This document shows, piece after piece, positions 9,923 to 48,342 of a stretch of 64,000 nucleotides of DNA (position 1 is the first letter of the stretch; the number at the start of each line of letters is the position of its first letter). A program made the position numbers and the translations under genes. The notes below the pieces were generated by a model that saw only the letters and a program-made list of their open reading frames with translations, did no database searches and had not been told where the DNA came from. This DNA is from Microbotryum violaceum. Its lineage: Eukaryota. The stretch covers positions 806,001-870,000 of the forward strand of contig CDLV01000013.1 of assembly GCA_001244265.2 (NCBI GenBank), read 5' to 3'.

Positions 9923-12236
9923 CTATCGATCCCTCTTGGCACGTTCCAACAAGCCGAACGGGTTCTCGAACCCAATCCTAGATACGATCGGAGTAACCTT
10001 GGCATGGGGAACTTCATCTTGACTCTTCTCCACCTCTTCTCGTTTCCTCTTTAAAGTCGATCTCCTCGTAGGTTGTGTCTTGGTCGCTTCCACAGTTTTG
10101 GCAGGACGTTCCTGGGCCACGCCTGCGAAACCCTTCGTTCCTCGCCAGATTTGTCCGCCTCGCTTCTCGACCAACACGTCAACTTCGGCAGCTTCCGTTT
10201 CGGGTTTCTCGACCAATCGAACGAAAGCGGCACCGAGTTTGTCCACACTCGCTGATAAGGGCTGGATCACACCTGGTTGTGAGCCTGTTTGAGAAGTGGG
10301 GATACGTTTTCAAGTGTGAGCATCCGGGCCTGCCGATCGAAACGAGAAATGAGAACTTACAAATGAGGAAAACCAAAGGCGTATCGTTGAATCCAGCTTG
10401 TAGCGAGCTCCCCGGAGTCGTCCATGAATCCCTGACCAAAGCTTGCGGCGTAGGAATCGTCGAATCAGGGATGCAAGCCGGTGAAGGCCCACCACCGAAA
10501 CGGCCGAGGAGGACGTTGTTACCGATTACGGTCGCATTTTCATGGCCGGCGACGGCGATGGAGTACCCAAAGTAGCCGTCGTTCAAGGAAGTGAAGGTAT
10601 TGTAGCGGAACGTTCCAAAGTGGCCACGCGAAGCGGTTCGATTATCGGAGCCCCAGATCTGAGTCAGATAAAGATAGGGGTCGAGTCAGTTCCTGCGGTA
10701 CTTCGGCGTGGGCACGAGGGGTTAAAGGCTAGGAACTGACCATACCACCAATCGCCACCCCAACTTTCATCATCTGACCATTCGTGATCAGGTGGTTGTT
10801 CTCAACGACCGTTCCCGAGTAATTACCGGCGAAAGGTGCGTAATCGACGGCGTTGATGCCACCCAAAGCACGTCGAGTGACACTCTGGATCGTGTTGCCC
10901 GTGATCAAAGAGCCCGGTGCTCCAAAGATCACAATTCCACCATCCGTAGCATCCGTGACGACGTTGTTACGGACCATCGAACCCTTGCAAGCCAGCGAGA
11001 TCCCATCGGCCCATTGCCCCGGCGCGATCGTCGCGTCCACCGCTCGGCGGCGGAATTGAAGACCGGTATTGGGGGCGTTCCCGGAGGGGCCGATTTGGTT
11101 GTTCTCGATGAGCATGTTGCTGCAGACGAGATTGGTGCCTTCGATAGCGTGCACCACGGACCATCCGCGAGGCTCCGACGCCTTGACGTTTCGTACGATC
11201 TGAAGGAAGAGGGCGGGGTTAGAATCCAATGTTACCAGCTAGTGACTCCGTCAAGCTGTCCAAGCTCACCTGGCCATTGGTCATTCCACCGAGCTCCAAC
11301 AAGGCGAAACCGTTCGAGAGATAACCCAAAACATCGCGCTGTCCGAGTACTTGGATACTGGAAACGACGATGTTGGAACATTGATCGCACGCGCCGTAGA
11401 TGGCGCACGATTGCTGTGCGCCGGTAACGACCAATCTTGCTCGAGCATCGTCGGTAGGGTTGCCTGTTACGCCATATACTGTCAGTGCTCTACACTAAAC
11501 GCATACTGGATCAATCGGATTGGGCCCACCTGCGGTTGTCAGCACTTGTCCAGCCGCAGTGAAGAAGATCGTGTTGGTCAAGTTGATGGTCGCTCTCGGG
11601 CACAACGTCACCGTGGTATTGGCTCCACCATAGTGAAAGAGCTTGTTCTGATACAAAGCCCAGACAACTCATATCAGCCAATCCGTCAGATGACTCGCAA
11701 AAAAACTCAATACTTTTGCCGCCACTCACGATATCGACGTCAGTCACCCAAGACCCCAAGCACGTCGGCGTCCTCGAGACCTTGGTTGTCGCATCCATCT
11801 CGGACCCATCAATGATCGTATCATTACTAACGTTACCCGATAAAATCGCATCAAAGTCGACCACTTCGTCCAAAGCCCTCATACGAATCTTCTCCGCCGA
11901 TTCGGTCGCCCGCGCTTTCTTTTTCGCGATGTGGGACGCCATCGCCGCGGCGGCCATGGTATCGATCCTCGATTGGATCTCGCGATCTTCTTCATCTTGG
12001 TAGAACTGAGGCCCTAGAGACCTGGAGGGTGTTCCGGGAACGGATCTTGTGGCCGGTCGAGCAAGGATGCTACTGCGTCGAGCTGAGACACCACGTAAAG
12101 TAGGGAAGGCCTCGGCGCATGGGAGAGGAGCGGTCAGGAGCGCGGTTGCGACCAGCGCGACCGTGAGCTTCAAGACGCCACGGCTCGCGCGGCGCCCGGC
12201 GCGGTTCCGTTGTCGCTCCATGGTTGAACTGGACAT
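9923..12236 (-). CDS. Secreted right-handed beta-helix (pectin-lyase-like fold) protein; multi-exon
   Basis: Hydrophobic signal-like segment (VLKLTVALVATALLTAPLPCAEA); beta-helix-type repeats IENNQIGPSG, WADGISLACKGSMVRNNVVTDATDGGIVIFGAPGSLITGNTI, GTVVENNHL; exons joined by GT-AG introns. Start could instead be 12221. Confidence 0.75.
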
Positions 12237-22636: not shown

Positions 22637-23263
22637 TCACTCCCCCCTGGCCTTCCTCAGTTCTACACTATGCAACTCCTCCACCTGATCCAACTCGTCC
22701 TTGGCAACCCCCTCCCTCCTCAGCCCCACCACATCCCCCTTTTCCCCACCCAAGCCTTCGAACAACTCCTTCCTCCCTCTATACTTCTTCTCCCACTCCC
22801 TATACCCCCCATCCAAAATCTTGACTTGCACTCCCTCGGGCCAATCATCATGTTCAGACAGCGCTTGAGCGGCCATAGGTCCGCGATATTGCGAGCGCAT
22901 GCAATGCGTGATCACTGTGTTGAGGCCTTGAGGGAGTCGAGGTTTGATGTGGGTTGAAATGATGGATTGAACGGAGGCGGGGGAGGAGAAGAGACGGGAG
23001 GAGAGCCATAAAGCTCGGGGGAGATTGCCACCGGGGAAATCGGACGTTCGTACGTCTGAGGTGCCAGGAGGGGTATCATGTGGGGGGGTTCAGTGTCGGG
23101 GCGTATGGGCTATGAGGGTGGGTGTGGGGTCTTTCCATGCCGAACTGCTCCGATTGAGTGAGATCTTACCGATGATGAGGAACGAATCGGGGTTCGGACT
23201 CGAAAGAATCATCTGCTCCACCTCGGTCGTGGAGATGTACGAAGGCGAAGCGGCGCGAGCCAT
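22637..23263 (-). CDS. Small Cdc25-like rhodanese phosphatase / arsenate reductase (Ych1/Ibp1/Acr2 family); 2 exons
   Basis: FLII/DVRTSDFPGGNLP, active-site loop HCMRSQYRGP (CX5R), and VKILDGGYREW. Confidence 0.85.
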
Positions 23264-23995
23264 ATTGGACTGGGAAAGCGGTATGGGCGACGAAGTCAAA
23301 TGACGTCGACCCCACCCGAAGTAGGTTTGTATTGGTTTGAACGTCGTGGGGCGGCGGGAAAGCGATCGTGGGTTCGCCGAGTTGCTAGCTTGAGCGGTCT
23401 GACAGGGGACAAACGACGTCACTCGTGAGCGCGTGAGCTCGGGCGGCGCTTCGTGCCAGGCTTCGGCGAGACCGAAAAAAACCCGGGTTTGCGGGCTTTG
23501 GTATTACACCTTCTGAGTCTTGACCACTGTGGTAAAAAGAACAAGAAGAAAGAACTCCAGGGCGCAAGATCTCTACATGCTGTTTTCGTGTAGACATGTT
23601 TGTTCTCTTTTCATGTCGAATTGATGGCGCTTACTAACCTACAAATGGTCGACTATCGCAGTCGCAAGCGAAACGGAGTAACAAAAACGTCAAGCCCGAA
23701 TGGGTCCGCCCGTAGCCGCCCGTTCGCCGCCGCTAGCCTCGACAGCTTTGGTACCTCGCCTCCGACGTCTCGAACCCCTGCACGACGCTCGACACCTCTC
23801 TGCATCTCCTACCGGTGGAGATTAGTGTGTCTTTCCGGTACATCGCAACCAGGCACGACGCCAAGACGGTCCACCCTCTCGCTGCCATCAAAAGTGTCGC
23901 ACATTCAGTCAACGCTCTACGCCGACGTTTTGATCGACTGTAGCGACTGCAGCTCGCCCGCGACCCCGGCATTTACGTGATCGACATCTTGCACC

Positions 23996-26900
23996 ATGGC
24001 AGGTGCAGTGGCTCGGGCTTCGACTCGCACGCGCAAGAAGACTGCAAGGGCACAAGACGATGACGAGCGCGACGGCAGCAACCCTCCCAGCCAGCCCTCA
24101 GCGCCGGCCTCGACCAGTGCGAGTGGTGCCAGTGCCAGTGCGAGCAGGAGCAGGAGTAGGAACGGCACTGTCGACCTCGCCTCGGACGCTGATGCACCAC
24201 TCGTAGCAGCTGTGGCTTCGAGCTCCAACAAACGTAGGTTCCTGCCTGACACTCTTTTCGAGTTGTGGGACGCCAAGGCTCCGATAGCTGACATCCCCCA
24301 TCTTGATCTCTTCCTTTCCTTCTCTCCTTCCCTTCTCTGTCTCTCTCGACTGCGGATCCTCCTCGACCTCGATGACTGTCGACTTGCGACTGGTGCGCTG
24401 CCCGCCCGCTCAATCACCGGCCTCGCCTTTGCCGTGTGCCTCTTTGAAATCGGCGACGAATGACGGTGTCGCATTTGCATTCTAATTGTACGCGCTCGCG
24501 CTCGCAATGCTAATGCCGTAATGGACGCGCGCCGCCCCCGCCTTCGGGTTCCTCTCGCGACCTGTTTGCGGTTCCCCGCTTTCATTGCTCTCCCGCCGCC
24601 TGTACGCTCTCCCCGGTCTGTATATTCTCGTTCGACTTCGACTTATTTTATCATCCGACTCGGAATTTGCTGTCAACCTACACCATACTCGTTCATCACC
24701 CGCTGTCGACGTGGCGAACCGCGTCGGGCCGCGCCGCGCTTTCAAAAAACAACACGACTCGGACGACCCCCACCCGTTGACGACTTTCGTCGCGCCGGCG
24801 CGCCATGGCCTCCAACCCGCATCCCAACTCTCACCCACACCCGCAACACCATGGCAACAATATTTATGCCGATCCGCACAACGTCGACCACGCTCGCAAT
24901 ATCGTCGTCGGCTCATCCTACACGATGCACTACCCGATCGGTCCGCCGCTCGACATCATGCATGCCTATGCGCCGATGCCGATGCCCATGCAAATGCCGA
25001 TGAACCACATGCCGATGCAACCGTCGCATCGACCGTCGGTTCCGATGATGCCTTTACAACCCATCACCAATACCGCATCTTCGTCCTTCATTTGGCCCGC
25101 TTCACCGCCCAAAGCCGCCGCTCCCAATACGCCGGCCGCCGCGCCTTGGCCTCAGAATGTGCTGCCTCCACCGCCCTCGGCCGCCCCAAACCCTAAATTG
25201 GCTGCGGCGGCGACGACGACAACCAAGGCCGCCCGTGGAGGTGCTGCAGCGAAACGAAAGTCGATCATCAAGGATGAAGCCGCAGCCGCACAGTCTGCAG
25301 CGCTTCTGCTCGCGCCCGATTACACCGCCAACCCTGCCGGACCTGCTTCATCCTCGGACACGGATTTCAAGTGCTCGTACTGCGATAAGATCTATAAGGG
25401 CAAGCATGCGCGGTCGATCTGGAGACGTCACTTGCAAGACAAGCATGGTATTCCTTTGGCGTCGCAGCCTCGACGGACCCGATGGGACAACGGTGAGTAA
25501 ATGCTGGCCTGTCTCCTCAGATTTGTACCCGCGCCCTGGCACGACCAACAGGGACGATGCTATTCTCAGGCGCGCGACGCGCTTGTTTGTCGAGGCCCCA
25601 CAAGCCGCACATCTCGACACAATGTCGTACTACACGCCCAAGGCACGTCATCAGGACCGAGGACATTCGTGTCTTGTCCTGGTCGAGTTGGTGTGTGCAC
25701 GCGTCGCGACGCGCAAGAGGAGGCCTGAGCGCATTATTTTCAATAGCTCCTCGGGACGTCATGGCTTGTCAGGGGCCTGTCAGAAGCTGGCTTCATTCGC
25801 AGACTTCGCACTGCACAGTCGATCAGTGCTATCATACTGATCATATCCTCCCCCTCCCCCCTTTTTTTATGTTCGTCCTGGCAGATGCGAATCGGCCCAA
25901 GTCCGAAGAAGAACGGCGGGCTAGAACGCTAGACTCCAAGCGAAGATGGGCACGCAAGAACCGTGGGACCGACGGGAGATCAGCCGGTGGCGACACGCCC
26001 GGTCGCGGTGGTTCGGCCTCTTTCGATGGCCGTGACGAGGGTGAATGGGAGGACGACCAGTTCGGCGATGAGGACGGCAGCAGTGCCGGTGGTCGAAGTC
26101 GAAGTAATAGCGCCAGTACCTGGCAAGAGAGCAAGACCGCACTCGCTCGTTCGGGCAGCGTACCCACGCTCGGTGGTGCTGGTCGACTTCAGGACGAGAA
26201 GCCCGATCGGTCGAGTCTGAGGGCCAGTCAGTCTACATCGGCCGTTCCGCACGCCTCCGAAATCGATCCGAGACATCCTCAGCAGCACCGCGGGTCTTAC
26301 GCTCATGGGCCACCGGCCCATCTCGTTCAACCTCGTGGATCACATCTGCCCCACTCCCCATCGTCGTACTACCAAGCACCATTGGCTGCCGCTGTCCCTA
26401 TCGGTGGGGCCTTGTCTGCGCCGCTTTTCCCGCAGGCGAATGAGGCCGAGTTCTACCGAAGCGAGAACCCGACATCGATGATGCAACGCCTTGGTGCCTC
26501 GATCCCTCGTCCCGCTTCCGCCTCTTCCCTCCCTCCACCGTATGCACCAGCTCAATCGACGTCGTCTGCCTCCTTGGCGTACTATGCCTCACGAGCCTCG
26601 CCGGGTCGGGGTAGTCGGACGACACTGCGACGCGATCCCAAAAGCCCAATACGCACCGGGTCCAACACCGAGGATGCCGCGGGAGTGCTGCTCGCGCTCA
26701 AGATGGCCAGTCCTTCGACAAGCTCGATCCTTCAGTCACCGGTCTCGGCGACCCGATCACGTCGATTCGATGACGATTCAGACGATGATGAGGAAGAGGA
26801 CGAAGAGGCCGGTGACCTCAGTCTCGAAGCGAACGAACCCTTCTCGGCCTTCACCGCCAAACAAGCGAGTCGGCGCACAGGTGGGAGTCGACTCGTTGCA

Positions 26901-27974
26901 AGCGGACGAGGGGCCGCTTTCGCAAGCCCTACTCGCGACCCACCTTCCTCTCCCGAAGGGTCCGATTCCTCGATCGACAACTGGTCGCGCAACGAAGGCG
27001 AAGCTTCGACATCGACGATGGTCGATCCGACGAGCTCGAAGCGAGCCGGCAAGAAGCGTAGCGCCGAGGACTCGCCACCACCTTACGGCAGTGCCCAAGC
27101 GCTCGTCGGTCTCAGTGCCAGTGCGCGCAAGATCCGGCCGATCGCCGGCATTGCGCCGAATGGTAACGGGCAGGTCGCTGGTCGACCCCTAGGTCCTAAC
27201 TCGTCTTACCACCAATACACCAGCTTGACGGCGACTCCGACGCCGGCGATGCGCGTCACGATGGAAAGCTCCCCCGCGATGGTCTACGGCCGAGACTTGT
27301 TGGAAGGTGGCTCCATCGGGCGCGGCCCACGGCACGATCATCATCATGATGACGACGATGGCGATCTCGAGGAAGACGAGCCGAGTCGAGGCGGCCGTGT
27401 CCACGACGGAAGCCCTAGTCGTGCGATGCGGTCCCATCGAAATGGCAACGGACCGATTGAGGACGCTTCGTCCTCTGCGCCTCGAGCTCATCACCACCAT
27501 CCTTATTCTCACGGGTACCCTTCGTCGGCTTCGTCGGCTCGTCATTACCCGCAAGCGCTGCACCACCATCACCCCGTCGGACTAACTTCGGATCTCGGTC
27601 ACTTCAACCTCTCGTCCTCCTCCGATCCCTCGCATCCTTCGTCTTCGTCCTCGTCGATGCCACCGCATCCTTCCTCATCTTCAGCCTCGTTCCCCCACTC
27701 GACACCCGGTGGTGTTTCAACCGATTACTACCGACTCCGAGGCTCGTCCCCACCCTCGCGCTCGAACGGCGGAAGCGGCTACCTCTTCTCCTCCCCCGCC
27801 CACCCCGGCATCTCAAAACAACTCGGCCTGCACGCCCAACCCGGTCCCGGCGTCTTATTCTCCGGAGAAACACCAGGTCGCAACGCCGCGGTCGATGTGC
27901 TCGAGTCGAGATCCAAAGGGATGAGGTTGGTCGAGGAAGGTGGGAGTCGAGCGGTGTTGAAGTTGGAGGATTGA
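23996..27974 (+). CDS. C2H2 zinc-finger putative transcription factor, long isoform (exons 23996-24233, 25115-25492, 25885-27974)
   Basis: Zinc finger FKCSYCDKIYKGKHARSIWRRHLQDKH followed by a basic helix QPRRTRWDN/DANRPKSEEERRARTLDSKRRWARKNR across intron 25493-25884 (GTGAGT..CAG, phase 1); long Ser/Pro/His-rich tail. Exon 1 is inferred from donor GTAGGT at 24234 and a phase-matched AG at 25113-25114. Confidence 0.7.
24234..25114 (+). other. Predicted 881-nt intron with distal branch point and 825-nt AG-exclusion zone
   Basis: GTAGGT (24234), GCTGAC branch point (24287-24292), ~55-nt pyrimidine tract (24293-24347), no AG from 24288 to 25112, first AG at 25113-25114 restores frame. Confidence 0.7.
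24805..27974 (+). CDS. Alternative short-promoter isoform of the same zinc-finger gene, with a His/Pro/Met-rich N-terminus
   Basis: ATG in strong context (CGCCATGG) downstream of a pyrimidine-rich promoter-like tract; 103 codons open and in frame with the zinc-finger exon. Confidence 0.6.
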
Positions 27975-28575
27975 AGAGTCGTTGTATCCTATTCCCGCCC
28001 AATGCACGTGTACCTTGCATAAACCCCTTCGAAATTCTTCATACCCCCCTGTTTGCACACCTAGTTCGCACTCCCGCGAGAACAAGCCCTCTTTCGTCTG
28101 TCGTCTTGCTACCTCTTTTTTTGTGGTTAGATTCTCCCAGGTCCTTTGGATCCCCGCTCTTTCTCTCTCACTCTTGTACGCTCGCTGCTGAACGATGTCT
28201 GTTCTGATTTTTTTTTTGGTCCACTCGACTTGTCGCGCACACCCTATATGAAATTCGAGGATCGCATTTCCTTTTGTACCTCTCACATCGGATCGTCAGA
28301 AAGAAGTGACCGTGGTTGCAAGCAAGTTTAAAAGACGAGAGCCAAAAGAACACAGAGATAAAACACAAAAGAACAAACAGGGGCTCATCAAGGCGTTCCT
28401 GTGCATAGCATAGCTATCGCTCACGCATGGATCGGTTCGAGTCGCAGGTAGTCGGGATAGGATGCGAAAGAGGACGGAATGGGCGTAAAAAAAAGGGGGT
28501 TGCATAGCAGTTCATGGGACAGAACGGCGGATGTCGAAGGCTTTAGGAACAATCAAAGGAAACTTGCGAGGTTCC

Positions 28576-45584: not shown

Positions 45585-48342
45585 TCAATTTCTGTATATC
45601 CCATCAGCCACTTTGGCAACATCGACCATTGCTTCGACATCATGCACCCGAACGATCTCGGCCCCTCCGGCGATACTGGCCGTCACCCCCGCGGCGGTAC
45701 CCAACACCCGATCCTTGGCCACGTCTTTCCCCGTCAACGTCCCGATGAATCGTTTCCTCGATAGTCCCACTAGGCTAGGAAATTGACGCAACAAGGTCGA
45801 ATCGTGGTCATCATACTCGGCGGAATCGCCGACTTCCTGTCGACCGAGTACTTCGGGCAACCTTCGCAGCAGTGCGAGATTGTCCGCTCCCGTCTTGGCG
45901 AAACCGATTCCCGGATCGACGATGATGTTCCACCTCTTGACACCCGCATCCAAAGCTTCTTGGATACGCTGGGCAAGCTCTCGTCGCACGCCAGCCACAA
46001 CGTCACCGGCCTCGTAATCCGTCATCTTTGACATTGTCGCTGGCGTGCCCCGCGAGTGCATCAACACAACGGGGACGTCAGCGGCGGCCATCACTTCAAG
46101 CATGCCCTCGCTCGCACCCCCATCACGTCGTTGATGATGTCGGCACCAGCGATGACGGCGGCTTTGGCGACCGAAGGGCGGAAGGTATCGATCGAGAGAG
46201 GGTTCGTCACTCCTCGCTCCCGCAGCGCCTTGATGAGAGGCACGACGCGAGCTTCTTCTTCTTCTGGGGTCACATCCGCAGCACCTGGCCGTGTACTCAT
46301 CCCTCCAATGTCCAAGATGTCGGCTCCGGCAGCAAGGTGACCCAGCGCAGTGGCTACAGAGGCTTCGAGATCGACATTGTCGCCGCCATCAGAGAAAGAG
46401 TCCGGTGTCGTGTTGATGATCGACATAACCAAAGTCCGCCGCAGGGGCAAGGTTGGTGCCAGCGAGGCCGACAGAGGCATGACCCTCTTGAGCGTTGACG
46501 GGCCGATCGAAAGTGCGTACAGCAAGCCGGACGTCGTTTGGCCCATTTTCGGGTGTCGAAAGTGCGGATTCAAGTCGACGAGAGGCCGCAGAACAAACTC
46601 GCGCTCGGCGATACTCGCATGTGGGATTTGAAGCCACCTGTCTTCGGGAGTGACGACGGTCGTCGTCGTCTGCCGCGAGTCAAATACAAGGTCATCGTAG
46701 AATAACACGTCCAGGTCGATGATCCGTGGCCCGTTGCGGATCGTCTTCTGCCGGCCAAGCCTATCCTCGACCGACTTGAGCGCGTGGAGCAGAGGCAGAG
46801 GTTCCAGCGTGGTTTCGATCTGGCCCAGTGCCGTCGGGGCACCCCAAGTCAGCGGGTTGTTACGTATTCTCGTCAGGTATATCAGCTCACCTCTACAGCA
46901 GCATTGAGAAACTTTGCCTGCTCCTCGACGTACATCGCCTCGCTCTCGTAGAGGAAGCTGGTACCGACCACTCTCGTCTTGTGCCCATTCTGACTCCCGA
47001 TGACACCGAGCTCTTTCAATGCCTCTGAAATGTTATGAACCCTTTGCCCCATATTCGTACCAACTCCAAGCACGACACGGTGTGGTTCACCACCTTCCTC
47101 CACGATTTCAGTCGCAGCTGTGGACTGACTGGACGAGCTCTCCGCCGTGGCACTCGTTCCCGCGCTCCAAGCGTCGGTCGCCAGCCCCCGTGCACTTGAT
47201 GCTCGAAGTGCCCCATTGGCGTCGAAGAAGTCCTTTCTATCACGAGTCACTTGCACGGAAGGATATTTCGCGAACATGAGGGCCGATGGCTTGGATACTC
47301 GCACACTCGTCCGTGGGACGTTCCAGCTAAGCGGCAGCGAGGTTGTCGAGCAGGTCGGTGGAGTGACGATCAGTTGAGCGAGAGATGTGGTGATGTGTTC
47401 GATTGTCAAGGGCTGAGATATGCTCAGTTGCTGTTTCGAGGAAAGAAGAGAGGGGTGAAAAGTCAGCTTGGACTAGGAGGGATTGAGAGATGGGAGATTG
47501 GGCACAAAGACAGGCCCTTCCGCGGGCCTGCAACTGCCATCGAAACTCACCTCCTCCACCTTCTTGACGACCTGTCGCCATGCCCTCCATTCACGGCGGG
47601 CCCCATTCTTCAAGCGATGTGCGACCATGAAAACCTCTTGATTGGCTAAAAAGTCGAGATCAACGATGACCTCTTGCTCTTCAAGGCGTTCGCAAGCGTT
47701 GATGCCGATGATGATGAAGCGGCGCAGACCTCGGATGAAGAGCTTGTCGTGAGCAAGGTTGGGCGACGAGGGATCCAAAGTCAAGGCTTCGATCGAAACT
47801 GAAGGATCGGTATCCGCAGGAGCAGTGTAATCGGCACGTGTGCGGAAGATGTCCACCCCAAGTGACTCGGCGGTGAGCAAGGCTCGTGGGCGAATGAGTT
47901 CGAGGCGAACGCAAGGCGCGTTGGATCGGAAGAGAACAACCTTGGCAAGAAGCTCTGCGATTGCTTCGAGAGGGTGGCCACCGAAGGAGTCGAGATCCAG
48001 GTTGAGTTCGTCGGATGAAGACGGAGAAGGAGGTAAGGGTGCGAGCTCGGCGACGGCCTTCTCGATCGCCTTAGTGACGGTGCCGTAGTTGAGCGACGAT
48101 CCTAGCAGCGAGTCGGTCGAGGCTTCGTCCTGCACGTCGGTATGGATCCACAGCGAGAGAAAGAGCGGTTGCGCCTTGCTCGGTCGTTGCCAAAGATCCT
48201 GTTCGAGGCTCGAAGTTCGCAGTGCCAAGGAGGTGATCTGGATCAGGTCGCGAGAGGGGAGTGAAGCTGACGGATGTTGCATCATCGGAGCATACCGGTG
48301 TGGAATTCCGTGCGTTATTCTGTCGGATCGAATCAAGACCAT
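45585..48342 (-). CDS. FOL1: Trifunctional folate synthesis protein (two DHNA domains, HPPK, DHPS); apparent 1-nt frameshift at 46117-46121
   Basis: DHNA SLNYGTVTKAIE and IIGINACERLEEQEVIVDL; HPPK VVLGVGTNMG, TSFLYESEAMYVEEQAKFLNAA, NGPRIIDLD, IPHASIAEREFVLRPL; DHPS IINTTPDSFSDGG, SIDTFRP, VLMHSRG, DPGIGFAK, SRKRFIG, VRVHDV. Start may be 48285. Confidence 0.92.

What the first reader, a model, noticed from the sequence alone, without database searches (positions are those of the whole stretch)
24234..25114. 825-nt AG-free zone: an extreme distal-branch-point intron in a zinc-finger regulator gene
Seen: on the plus strand there is no AG dinucleotide between 24288 and 25112 (checked line by line), although GA, A and G are common there; roughly 40-50 would be expected at one per 16-20 nt. 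The desert begins at a canonical branch point (GCTGAC, 24287-24292) about 54 nt after a GTAGGT donor, the spacing of ordinary short introns in this window. A ~55-nt pyrimidine tract follows. The desert ends at AAAG|CC (25114), where splicing joins exon 1 (phase 1) in frame to the zinc-finger exon. No CTRAY branch motif lies near that acceptor. Established: the spliceosome usually takes the first AG after the branch point, fungal branch-to-AG distances are normally tens of nt, and long distances can stall step 2 (spliceosomal cleavage, as in fission-yeast telomerase RNA 3' end formation). Inference: selection maintains an ~820-nt scanning path, allowing a short-intron genome to skip a whole internal promoter and exon, or making step 2 a regulated switch.
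Basis: partly seen in the sequence, partly recalled or inferred. Interest (0 to 1): 0.88.

Follow-up and report, generated by a model that had tools for sequence, protein, structure and literature searches.

The report
Giant AG-free intron in fungal gene
A zinc-finger gene of the anther-smut fungus has an 881-base intron whose last 825 bases contain no AG at all. The same ban is kept in distant relatives, which indicates that the splicing machinery branches near the start of the intron and then takes the first AG it meets, even 0.8 kb away.

Summary
There is no AG on the + strand from 24288 to 25112 (825 nt). The next longest AG-free gap in the window is 157 nt. None of 100,000 shuffles of the zone lost all AG.

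The predicted splice 24233^25115 is present in contigs of three public runs from two studies. The window matches Microbotryum lychnidis-dioicae gene MVLG_00729.

Three other lineages, recovered from metagenome contigs, keep the same layout:
- a basic exon 1 and a strong donor;
- a CTGAC-type branch motif 42-71 nt downstream of the donor, followed by a pyrimidine tract;
- 338-528 nt without a usable AG, ending at an in-frame acceptor.

The zone also holds a real alternative first coding exon, so protein-coding sequence evolves under a ban on AG. No bridging RNA structure is predicted.

Most likely this is an extreme, conserved AG exclusion zone behind a distal branch point. AG exclusion zones are known from vertebrates. 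My searches of the held library turned up no case in basidiomycetes, none this long in fungi, and none overlapping a coding exon.

The branch nucleotide itself was not mapped.

The parts
23996..24233 (+). Exon 1 coding part (79 codons plus 1 nt, phase 1). It encodes a basic N-terminus with the motif STRTRKKTARA.
   Evidence: The open frame runs from ATG 23996. An RNA contig of X10 covers 23736-24233 and continues into 25115. The peptide matches residues 1-24 of the annotated Leucosporidium creatinivorum orthologue (63% identity, E 1e-6). It also matches the exon-1 positions of L002, L004 and L007.
24234..24239 (+). 5' splice site GTAGGT
   Evidence: Joint from 24233 to 25115 with ends GT..AG in X2, X3 and X10. 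Orthologues carry GTGAGT or GTGCGT at the same place.
24288..24292 (+). Predicted branch site CTGAC (A at 24291), 57 nt from the donor and 823 nt from the acceptor G
   Evidence: It is the first YTRAY at a workable distance from the donor, and the AG-free zone starts at it. A YTRAY sits at the same place in L002, L004, L005 and L007. The branch was not mapped experimentally.
24292..24351 (+). Pyrimidine tract directly behind the predicted branch site
   Evidence: 88% pyrimidine over 60 nt. The same position is 72-83% pyrimidine in the orthologues.
24288..25112 (+). AG-free zone (825 nt)
24805..25114 (+). Alternative first coding exon inside the zone. It supplies the N-terminal 103 codons of the annotated 925-aa protein and runs on without a break into exon 2.
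   Evidence: P0040 (MVLG_00729) begins MASNPHPN at ATG 24805. By my count from the alignment, 75 of 88 in-zone residues are identical to M. intermedium, with no gap. Gln is CAA in 4 of 4 codons, Ser is TCN in 10 of 10, Arg is CGN in 2 of 2, and there is no NNA-GNN codon junction. There is no upstream ATG in the last 284 nt before it.
25113..25114 (+). 3' splice site AG, the first AG after the predicted branch site
25115..25492 (+). Exon 2, which carries the single C2H2/BED-like zinc finger
   Evidence: Contigs start at 25115 and join 25492 to 25885. Pfam zf-BED scores 20.8 bits against a cut-off of 20.6. The finger is invariant in 31 aligned homologues.
25493..25884 (+). Intron 2 (392 nt), an ordinary long intron that serves as an internal control
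   Evidence: The joint is in X2, X3 and X10. It has 22 AG in 392 nt, and a CTGAT lies 44 nt before its acceptor.
25885..27974 (+). Exon 3 (to the stop codon)
   Evidence: 100% identical over 695 aa to MVLG_00729.

Best explanation
The 881-nt intron 24234-25114 of the Microbotryum zinc-finger gene MVLG_00729 is most likely branched at its 5' end, at the A of CTGAC (24291), 57 nt behind the donor, with its pyrimidine tract directly behind that.

After the first step, the spliceosome ligates exon 1 to the first AG that follows the branch. Every AG in the next 0.8 kb would therefore be a premature acceptor and has been removed by selection. This gives an AG exclusion zone of 825 nt.

The splicing signals all sit at the two ends, so the interior can carry a second, internal first exon. 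That exon needs its own transcription start, which is inferred and not mapped. Transcripts from the upstream promoter splice the interior out and make a protein with a basic, possibly nuclear-targeting N-terminus. Transcripts that start inside the zone have neither donor nor branch site. They keep the zone as exon and make the annotated 925-aa protein.

Shown: the AG ban, the junction, the conserved layout, the coding nature of the inner exon, and continued selection against new AG.

Inferred: which nucleotide branches, how the distant AG is found (I favour capture of the first AG to emerge during transcription over a folded bridge), and where the inner transcripts start.
For: 1. The AG-free run is far beyond chance.

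2. The joint 24233->25115 (GT..AG, skips 881) is in contigs of X2, X3 and X10, which come from two studies. X10 is identical to the window and X2/X3 are 90-99% alike. The same contigs also splice intron 2 and a neighbouring minus-strand intron, and X10 has no cover on the intergenic 23368-23735. I therefore read these runs as RNA, although their kind is not on record.

3. Of 17 related loci, 13 have at least 300 nt upstream of the finger exon.
- 6 of the 13 (L001-L005 and L007, three lineages of 46-47%, 64% and 72% G+C) have an AG-free run of 348-521 nt ending 40-142 nt before the match. This is the longest run among the six dinucleotides tabulated in each of them.
- L002, L004, L005 and L007 were dissected. 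In each, the run starts at or just behind a YTRAY that lies 42-71 nt after a strong donor, and it ends at an acceptor in phase with exon 1.
- The exon-1 peptide is found just upstream in these four loci.
- Shuffles with no AG: 1, 0, 19 and 4 of 100,000.

4. L002 and L004 differ at 110 of 481 aligned zone positions, yet neither gained an AG. Random placement of the same changes gives 4.5-5.5 new AG and leaves none in 0.16-0.64% of 5000 trials.

5. Intron 2 of the same gene has 22 AG in 392 nt and a branch motif 44 nt from its acceptor. AG avoidance is therefore not a general property of long introns here.

6. There is no YTRAY within 334 nt of the acceptor in the window. In L007 there is not even a loose yTnAy within 100 nt.

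7. In vertebrates the same signature predicts distal branch points that were then verified, for example GABBR1 exon 23 at -275 (passages of PMC1431707).
Against: - The branch nucleotide was not mapped. Contigs cannot show lariats.
- L002 and L004 have a TTAAT 21 and 30 nt before the acceptor. The window has loose yTnAy matches at -58, -24 and -10. A proximal branch site is therefore not excluded by sequence alone.
- In L002 and L004 one AG lies 5-9 nt behind the proposed branch A. I assume it is too close to be used, but the S. pombe reporters in PMC9508853 still spliced with 6 nt spacing in wild type.
- In S. pombe reporters, spacing of 30 nt or more was already poorly spliced. In S. cerevisiae, extending the spacing to about 120 nt abolished ACT1 splicing. 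An 823-nt spacing would therefore need properties not yet described for a fungal spliceosome.
- 5 of the 13 informative loci (L011, L012, L015-L017) show no such zone. They are the weakest matches and lack an exon-1-like peptide.
Confidence: 0.8

Rival explanations
1. Productive splicing uses a weak branch site close to the acceptor. The CTGAC and pyrimidine tract at the start of the intron form a competing or 'holding' branch site, and the AG ban only prevents mis-splicing from that site.
For: - Loose yTnAy motifs lie at -58, -24 and -10 in the window, and TTAAT at -21 and -30 in L002 and L004.
- In human minigenes, distal branch sites contributed only moderately and were proposed to act as a holding state (passages of PMC5378181).
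Against: - A decoy that forces hundreds of bases, including coding sequence, to avoid AG would be cheaper to lose than to keep. Yet the motif and tract are kept in four lineages.
- L007 has no yTnAy within 100 nt of the acceptor.
Confidence: 0.1
2. The AG-free state has nothing to do with splicing. It comes from base composition, amino-acid or codon preference of the inner exon, a strand-specific mutation bias, or a repeat.
For: - The zones are pyrimidine-rich (62-72%), and those of L002 and L004 have only 9-10% G.
- In Gooding et al., one 369-nt human zone was put down to a repetitive element.
Against: - Composition predicts 7-29 AG per zone, and GA is present 13-38 times.
- There is no repeat and no Rfam family.
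- The ban covers non-coding and coding parts alike. It starts at a branch motif and stops exactly at a used acceptor in four lineages.
- Codon choice flips at the acceptor. Arg is CGN in 20 of 20 codons inside the zone against AGR in 6 of 10 behind it in L005. Gln and Lys are CAG/AAG in 11 of 12 codons behind the acceptor in L007, against CAA in the single such codon inside the zone.
Confidence: 0.03
3. An addition to the main model rather than a replacement. The long distance makes exon ligation slow on purpose, so that the yield of the exon-1 isoform is regulated at step 2, or first-step products are discarded or released as in fission-yeast telomerase RNA.
For: - Greater branch-to-AG distance weakens the second step, and in S. 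pombe Ter1 this weakness is used to stop after step 1 (passages of PMC5378181).
- Sde2, Cactin and Tls1 control branch-distant acceptors in S. pombe (PMC9508853).
Against: - The ligated product is abundant. The exon-1 contig has depth 27 of 39 on exon 2 in X10, and 117-122 in X2, where the zone has no cover up to 24839. Contig depths are a poor measure of expression.
- Nothing here measures kinetics.
Confidence: 0.15

Closest known systems
AG exclusion zones with distant branch points in vertebrates (Gooding et al. 2006, PMC1431707; passages read)
   Same: - An AG-free stretch much longer than chance upstream of an acceptor.
- A consensus branch site and pyrimidine tract at its 5' end.
- The zone is conserved in orthologues although the sequence is not.
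- The first AG behind the branch is used.
- Predicted sizes are comparable: Fugu PTB exon 11 has a zone of 590 nt with a branch at -566, and human PTPRS has 1126 nt, unverified.
   Different: - Here the host is a short-intron basidiomycete fungus.
- The branch site sits 57 nt from the donor, so nearly the whole intron is the zone.
- The zone contains an alternative first coding exon rather than regulatory elements for a cassette or mutually exclusive exon.
- The largest experimentally verified case in the passages I read is -275.
Structured distant-branch-point introns of Saccharomycotina (Gahura et al. 2011, PMC3239191; passages read)
   Same: They are fungal introns with unusually long branch-to-acceptor distances, up to 166 nt in Saccharomyces, 185 nt in K. 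lactis and 471 nt in C. glabrata.
   Different: - Those introns keep AGs and hide them in a stem that also shortens the distance.
- Here there is no AG at all, and predicted folding is not stronger than in shuffles (z +0.6, -1.8, -1.1, +1.9, +3.2). A shortened path is not consistent across loci.
Branch-distant 3' splice sites of S. pombe that depend on Sde2, Cactin and Tls1 (PMC9508853; passages read)
   Same: The acceptor lies further from the branch than the core spliceosome handles well. A nearer AG wins when one is offered.
   Different: The scale differs: 'distant' there means 20-40 nt, and reporters with 30 nt or more were poorly spliced. Whether Microbotryomycetes use these factors for this intron is unknown.
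Spliceosomal cleavage of S. pombe telomerase RNA (as cited in PMC5378181; the original paper was not read)
   Same: A donor and branch site are followed by an excessive distance to the acceptor.
   Different: There the first-step product is the end product. Here the ligated exon 1-exon 2 RNA is seen in three runs.

Membership tests
AG exclusion zone with distant branch point | An AG-free stretch upstream of a used acceptor, far longer than chance | tested here: met
   825 nt against a chance maximum of 235 nt in 200 simulations. 0 of 100,000 shuffles were AG-free. The acceptor is used.
AG exclusion zone with distant branch point | A consensus branch site with an adjacent pyrimidine tract at the 5' end of the zone | tested here: met
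   CTGAC at 24288-24292 followed by 60 nt of 88% pyrimidine. The equivalent is present in L002, L004, L005 and L007.
AG exclusion zone with distant branch point | No good branch site in the usual place near the acceptor | tested here: inconclusive
   There is none (YTRAY) within 334 nt in the window, and not even a yTnAy within 100 nt in L007. L002 and L004 have TTAAT at -21 and -30.
AG exclusion zone with distant branch point | The zone is conserved in orthologues despite sequence divergence | tested here: met
   Present in 6 of 13 informative loci, in three further lineages. L002 and L004 are 77% identical in the zone with no new AG (P 0.002-0.006).
AG exclusion zone with distant branch point | The branch is mapped to the distal site, and an inserted AG is captured as acceptor | not testable with these tools
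   This needs lariat mapping and mutagenesis.
Structured distant-branch-point intron (yeast type) | A stable stem between branch and acceptor that shortens the path and masks silent AGs | tested here: not met
   MFE z-scores range from -1.8 to +3.2 against 30 shuffles each. The path from branch to AG is longer than in every shuffle in the window and shorter than most in L002 and L004. There are no AGs to mask.
Spliceosomal cleavage (first step only) | Exon ligation does not occur, and the released 5' exon is the product | tested here: not met
   The ligated junction 24233^25115 is present in three runs. A minor cleavage pathway is not excluded.
Alternative first exons from nested promoters | Two mutually exclusive N-terminal coding exons, both under purifying selection, joined to a common exon | tested here: met
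   - Among the 6 named NCBI proteins that contain the finger, 2 have exon-1-type N-termini (Leucosporidium, R. toruloides) and 4 have in-zone-type N-termini (two Microbotryum, Rhodosporidiobolus, Pseudohyphozyma).
- In the inner ORF, indels are multiples of three in 4 of 4 cases, and substitutions by codon position are 15/7/30.
Alternative first exons from nested promoters | A mapped second transcription start inside the intron | not testable with these tools
   Contigs cannot show RNA starts. The absence of upstream ATGs (284 nt in the window, 199-219 nt in L002 and L004) is only a hint.

The most novel reading that the evidence does not exclude
In Microbotryomycetes the spliceosome can complete the first step on a donor-branch unit the size of a normal short intron. 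It then stays competent until the first AG emerges, 0.3-0.8 kb later, without help from RNA structure. This would be a natural, conserved demonstration of a strict 'first AG after the branch' rule over near-kilobase distances.

The rule is strong enough to forbid one dinucleotide in about 100 codons of a protein-coding alternative exon. It forces CAA/AAA/GAA, TCN and CGN codons and removes all NNA-GNN codon junctions.

Promoter choice, perhaps together with step-2 kinetics, then switches the zinc-finger protein between a basic N-terminus and a proline-rich one.
Probability: 0.35. Interest if true: 0.85.

Novelty: new variant of a known kind. Interest (0 to 1): 0.74.

Why it matters
How the spliceosome finds the 3' splice-site AG is still debated. 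The candidates are linear scanning, diffusion limited by distance, structural bridging, and co-transcriptional first come, first served. The passages of PMC5378181 that I read say it is not clear what sets the maximum branch-to-AG distance.

This locus is a natural experiment. In at least four fungal lineages, selection has kept 340-825 nt free of AG behind a branch motif. This implies that any AG there would be used. In the fungal cases I read about, reporters lose efficiency at 30-120 nt and natural distances reach 471 nt at most.

The gene also exists in Rhodotorula toruloides, an oleaginous yeast for which, from my own knowledge, genetic tools exist. The rule could therefore be tested there by inserting single AGs.

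The locus also shows a rare kind of constraint: a splicing rule imposes a dinucleotide ban on a coding sequence.

On the practical side, the deposited protein MVLG_00729 represents only one of two isoforms. Gene finders that expect a branch site near the acceptor will miss such introns.

Tried and rejected
- Genome-wide ranking of AG-free runs was not possible, because no genome is held for this window. Background comes only from the 64-kb window and about 70 kb of related loci. The longest other runs there are 236 nt or less for AG and 223 nt or less for CT.
- RNA runs: no RNA holder is listed on record. The kinds of X2, X3 and X10 are guesses. I read them as RNA from their spliced joints.
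- A part without cover. In X10 and X3 the depth of bin 24104-24287 is fully accounted for by the exon-1 contig. An X10 contig of depth 11.6 runs from 24285 to 25144 across the unspliced acceptor. This could be an intron tail behind the branch, inner-promoter transcripts, or both. Contigs cannot show starts, so I do not use it as evidence.
- A folded bridge between branch and acceptor is rejected: there is no consistent excess stability or shortened path.
- Known RNA families and repeats in the zone: none found.
- A motif shared across lineages inside the zone: the alignment of the first ~180 nt of the intron from five loci has 54% mean identity, and nothing is invariant beyond the donor.
- The window's in-zone peptide has no significant match to P0011 (E 0.67). 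Its coding status in Microbotryum rests on the comparison with M. intermedium.
- The other long runs in the window (CT-free 217 nt at 10442-10659, AG-free 157 nt at 45606-45763) are within the simulated chance range.
- Earlier scan notes: nothing on this genome or on AG exclusion zones.
- Literature: searches and 43 of the held library found no report of an AG exclusion zone or distal branch point in Microbotryum or any basidiomycete. The library lacks most subscription journals.
- Supplementary tables were not opened. The intron lists of PMC3239191 and PMC9508853 could hold longer fungal distances than those quoted in the main text.
Full report
**What is in the sequence**

On the + strand the last AG before the zone is at 24286-24287 and the next is at 25113-25114. 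The 825 nt from 24288 to 25112 therefore contain no AG.
- AG occurs 3881 times in the 64,000-nt window.
- The next longest AG-free gap is 157 nt. The longest gaps of the other fifteen dinucleotides are 93-315 nt.
- In 200 first-order Markov sequences of the same size, the longest AG-free gap averaged 134 nt and never exceeded 235 nt.
- The zone holds 143 A and 167 G, 38-39 GA, and an expected 29 AG. None of 100,000 mononucleotide shuffles lost all AG (minimum 11). AG is the only one of sixteen dinucleotides that is missing.
- The zone is not a repeat and matches no Rfam family.

**The gene**

Exon 3 (25885-27974) is 100% identical over 695 residues to the hypothetical protein MVLG_00729 of Microbotryum lychnidis-dioicae p1A1 Lamole. 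It is 92% identical to BQ2448_3575 of M. intermedium.

Exon 2 (25115-25492) carries one zinc finger, which is invariant among 31 aligned homologues. The finger scores just above the Pfam zf-BED cut-off, 20.8 against 20.6 bits.

The deposited 925-aa protein starts at ATG 24805, which lies inside the AG-free zone.

**RNA evidence**

Contigs of four public runs were laid on 23000-28500. A joint from 24233 to 25115 (skips 881, ends GT..AG, no ambiguity) is present in three of them:
- X2, depth 117;
- X3, depth 64;
- X10, depth 27.

These runs come from two studies. X10 is identical to the window. X2 and X3 come from a relative that is 90-99% alike.

I read these runs as RNA, although their kind is not on record, for three reasons. 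The same contigs splice intron 2 (25492^25885). They splice a minus-strand intron of the neighbouring gene (23056-23169). X10 has no cover on the intergenic stretch 23368-23735.

The side of the joint is 30 letters, which I take to be the overlap expected at a fork of a 31-word assembly graph. The fork itself is informative. A second X10 contig (24285-25144, depth 11.6) enters the same 30 letters from the unspliced side, and 27.4 + 11.6 is about the 39.3 of exon 2.

Exon 1 begins at ATG 23996 and ends in phase 1. The acceptor restores the frame of the finger exon.

No joint to the TAG at 24285-24287 was listed. Contigs can drop rare forms, so this absence is weak.

**Relatives**

A pattern scan of metagenome contigs with the finger exon gave 17 loci. 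Thirteen of them have at least 300 nt upstream of the match.

Six of the thirteen carry a very long AG-free run just upstream of the finger exon:
- L001-L004 (46-47% G+C) have runs of 510-521 nt. In L003 the run is at least 419 nt and is cut by the contig end.
- L005 (64% G+C) has a run of 348 nt.
- L007 (72% G+C) has a run of 507 nt.

In each of the six this is the longest run among the six dinucleotides tabulated.

L013 and L014, which are one sequence, have a 196-nt run starting at a CTGAC, without a clear donor. L011, L012 and L015-L017 have none. These five are the weakest matches and have no exon-1-like peptide.

Dissection of L002, L004, L005 and L007 gives the same plan as in the window. 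An exon encodes a basic peptide ((S/A)RTRKKTQR; in L005 SGRKRQPSVRAK). A strong donor follows, then a branch-type motif, a pyrimidine tract of 72-83% pyrimidine, an AG-free stretch, and an acceptor in phase 1.

| Locus | Donor | Donor to branch A (nt) | Branch motif | Branch A to acceptor G (nt) | Intron (nt) |
|---|---|---|---|---|---|
| Window | GTAGGT | 57 | CTGAC | 823 | 881 |
| L002 | GTGAGT | 47 | CTGAT | 528 | 576 |
| L004 | GTGAGT | 42 | CTGAT | 520 | 563 |
| L005 | GTGAGT | 71 | TTGAC | 338 | 410 |
| L007 | GTGCGT | 55 | CTGAC | 498 | 554 |

In L002 and L004 one AG lies 5-9 nt behind the branch A. Splicing to it would be out of frame, by my calculation from the coordinates. I take it to be too close to be used, which is an assumption.

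Shuffles of the four zones lost all AG in 1, 0, 19 and 4 of 100,000 trials.

**Selection is still acting**

L002 and L004 are 77% identical in the zone, with 110 differences in 481 aligned positions. Neither has gained an AG. Placing the same spectrum of changes at random creates 4.5-5.5 AG on average, and creates none in 0.16% and 0.64% of 5000 trials.

**The zone contains a real coding exon**

Evidence from the comparison of L002 with L004:
- The part behind the in-zone ATG has indels of 9, 9, 3 and 3 nt, so 4 of 4 are multiples of three. The non-coding part before it has indels of 8, 2, 20, 1, 9 and 3 nt, so 2 of 6 are.
- Substitutions by codon position are 15, 7 and 30.
- Divergence is 17% in the ORF part against 32% upstream of it.

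Evidence from other proteins:
- The L002 in-zone peptide matches the N-terminus of the annotated Rhodosporidiobolus lusitaniae protein around the motif PxFPSSIPAPY (E 7e-7).
- In Microbotryum, by my count from the alignment, 75 of 88 in-zone residues are identical to M. intermedium, with no gap.
- Among the six named NCBI proteins fetched that contain the finger, two begin with the exon-1 peptide (Leucosporidium creatinivorum, one R. toruloides model; one search gives E 1e-6 for the former). Four begin inside the zone.

Both N-termini are therefore conserved alternatives.

Inside the zone the ban overrides codon habits:
- In L005, Arg is CGN in 20 of 20 codons inside the zone, against AGR in 6 of 10 just behind the acceptor.
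- In L007, Gln and Lys are CAG/AAG in 11 of 12 codons behind the acceptor, while the single such codon inside the zone is CAA.
- In the window, Gln is CAA in 4 of 4 codons, Ser is TCN in 10 of 10, and there is no NNA-GNN codon junction where 1.8 are expected.

The stretch before the inner ATG has no upstream ATG for 284 nt in the window and for 199-219 nt in L002 and L004. This fits a 5' leader of transcripts that start inside the intron, but no start was mapped.

**Why the branch is most likely distal**

- An ordinary long intron of the same gene (intron 2, 392 nt) holds 22 AG. Its CTGAT lies 44 nt before the acceptor with no AG in between. Long introns here tolerate AG upstream of their branch.
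- An AG ban that begins at a branch motif and ends at the used acceptor is what the first-AG-after-the-branch rule predicts. Gooding et al. used the same signature to predict distal branch points in human genes, some of which they then verified by mutation (GABBR1 exon 23, zone 288, branch -275).
- Near the acceptor there is no YTRAY within 334 nt in the window. In L007 there is not even a loose yTnAy within 100 nt.
- If the distal motif were an unused decoy, losing it would be far cheaper than keeping hundreds of bases, a third of them coding, free of AG. Instead the motif and its tract are kept in four lineages.

Points against:
- L002 and L004 have TTAAT at -21 and -30.
- The window has loose matches at -58, -24 and -10.
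- The branch was not mapped.

**How the far AG is found**

In Saccharomycotina, long distances are bridged and decoy AGs are masked by a stem (Gahura et al.).

That is not the case here. Minimum free energies are not lower than in shuffles (z +0.6, -1.8, -1.1, +1.9, +3.2). The path from branch to AG through the predicted fold is longer than in all 30 shuffles in the window, and short only in L002 and L004.

I therefore favour capture of the first AG that becomes available after an early first step, probably during transcription. This is inference. The published S. pombe and S. cerevisiae data, where 30-120 nt already hurts, show that it would be an unusual ability.

**Comparison with what is known**

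The kind is known: AG exclusion zones with distant branch points in vertebrates. These include predicted zones of 590 nt (Fugu PTB exon 11) and 1126 nt (human PTPRS, unverified), and distal branch sites conserved from human to zebrafish.

What differs here:
- The host is a basidiomycete with short introns.
- The length is 823 nt, against the fungal maxima quoted of 166, 185 and 471 nt.
- There are no masked AGs and no predicted bridging structure.
- The branch lies at short-intron distance from the donor.
- The zone encloses an alternative first coding exon that evolves under the ban.

My searches of the held library found no report of this for Microbotryum or other basidiomycetes. The library is incomplete and supplements were not opened.

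**Verdict**

It is a new variant of a known kind and of considerable interest to people who study 3' splice-site choice.

Still open are the branch nucleotide, the inner transcription start, and any regulation at step 2.

Noticed in passing
window 23996-24233 and 24805-25114: The deposited protein MVLG_00729 (925 aa) represents only the isoform that starts inside the intron. The exon-1 isoform comes to 901 aa by my count of the exon lengths. It is supported by the RNA junction and by the Leucosporidium and R. toruloides gene models, but it was not among the proteins found.
   Followed up: yes
window 24369-24388; L002 about 428-447: A 20-nt stretch about 80 nt behind the predicted branch site appears similar in Microbotryum and in the 46% G+C lineage. 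I count about 16 of 20 identical by eye from the alignments. By a rough hand estimate this is only marginally above chance. L002 and L004 also share a block of about 30 nt that is 100% identical, directly behind the pyrimidine tract, in an otherwise 32%-divergent non-coding part. It might be a promoter or splicing element.
   Followed up: partly
window 24234-24284 against 24285-25144: In X10 a contig covers 24285-25144 across the unspliced acceptor, but nothing covers the 51 nt between the donor and the branch motif. The bin depths of X3 show the same gap. This fits an intron tail behind the branch, or transcripts that start inside the intron. Contigs cannot decide between these.
   Followed up: partly
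window 25493-25884: Intron 2 is 392 nt long and has ordinary signals (22 AG, CTGAT 44 nt before the acceptor). In X10 it is covered by a contig of depth 6.3, which may mean partial retention or pre-mRNA.
   Followed up: partly
window 23056-23169, minus strand: A 114-nt GT..AG intron of the neighbouring minus-strand gene is confirmed by joints in X2, X3 and X10.
   Followed up: no
window 10442-10659 and 45606-45763: These are the longest CT-free run (217 nt) and the second longest AG-free run (157 nt). Both lie within the range of 200 Markov simulations (maxima 223 and 235), so they are probably chance.
   Followed up: yes
L013 2949-3144 (the same stretch in L014): A 196-nt AG-free run begins at a CTGAC inside an ORF that starts MYRPD, like P0014, about 209 nt before the finger match. 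No exon-1 peptide or clear donor was found upstream. It may be a shorter or remodelled version of the zone.
   Followed up: partly
L007 4788-5009 (the same stretch in L006, 1029-1250): A second AG-free run of 221 nt lies downstream of the finger exon in the 72% G+C lineage. It was not examined.
   Followed up: no
runs X2 and X3 against X10: Runs filed under the same coded organism label differ by 5-10% from the window in this gene. The label therefore seems to cover more than one species. The spliced junction is shared by both.
   Followed up: no
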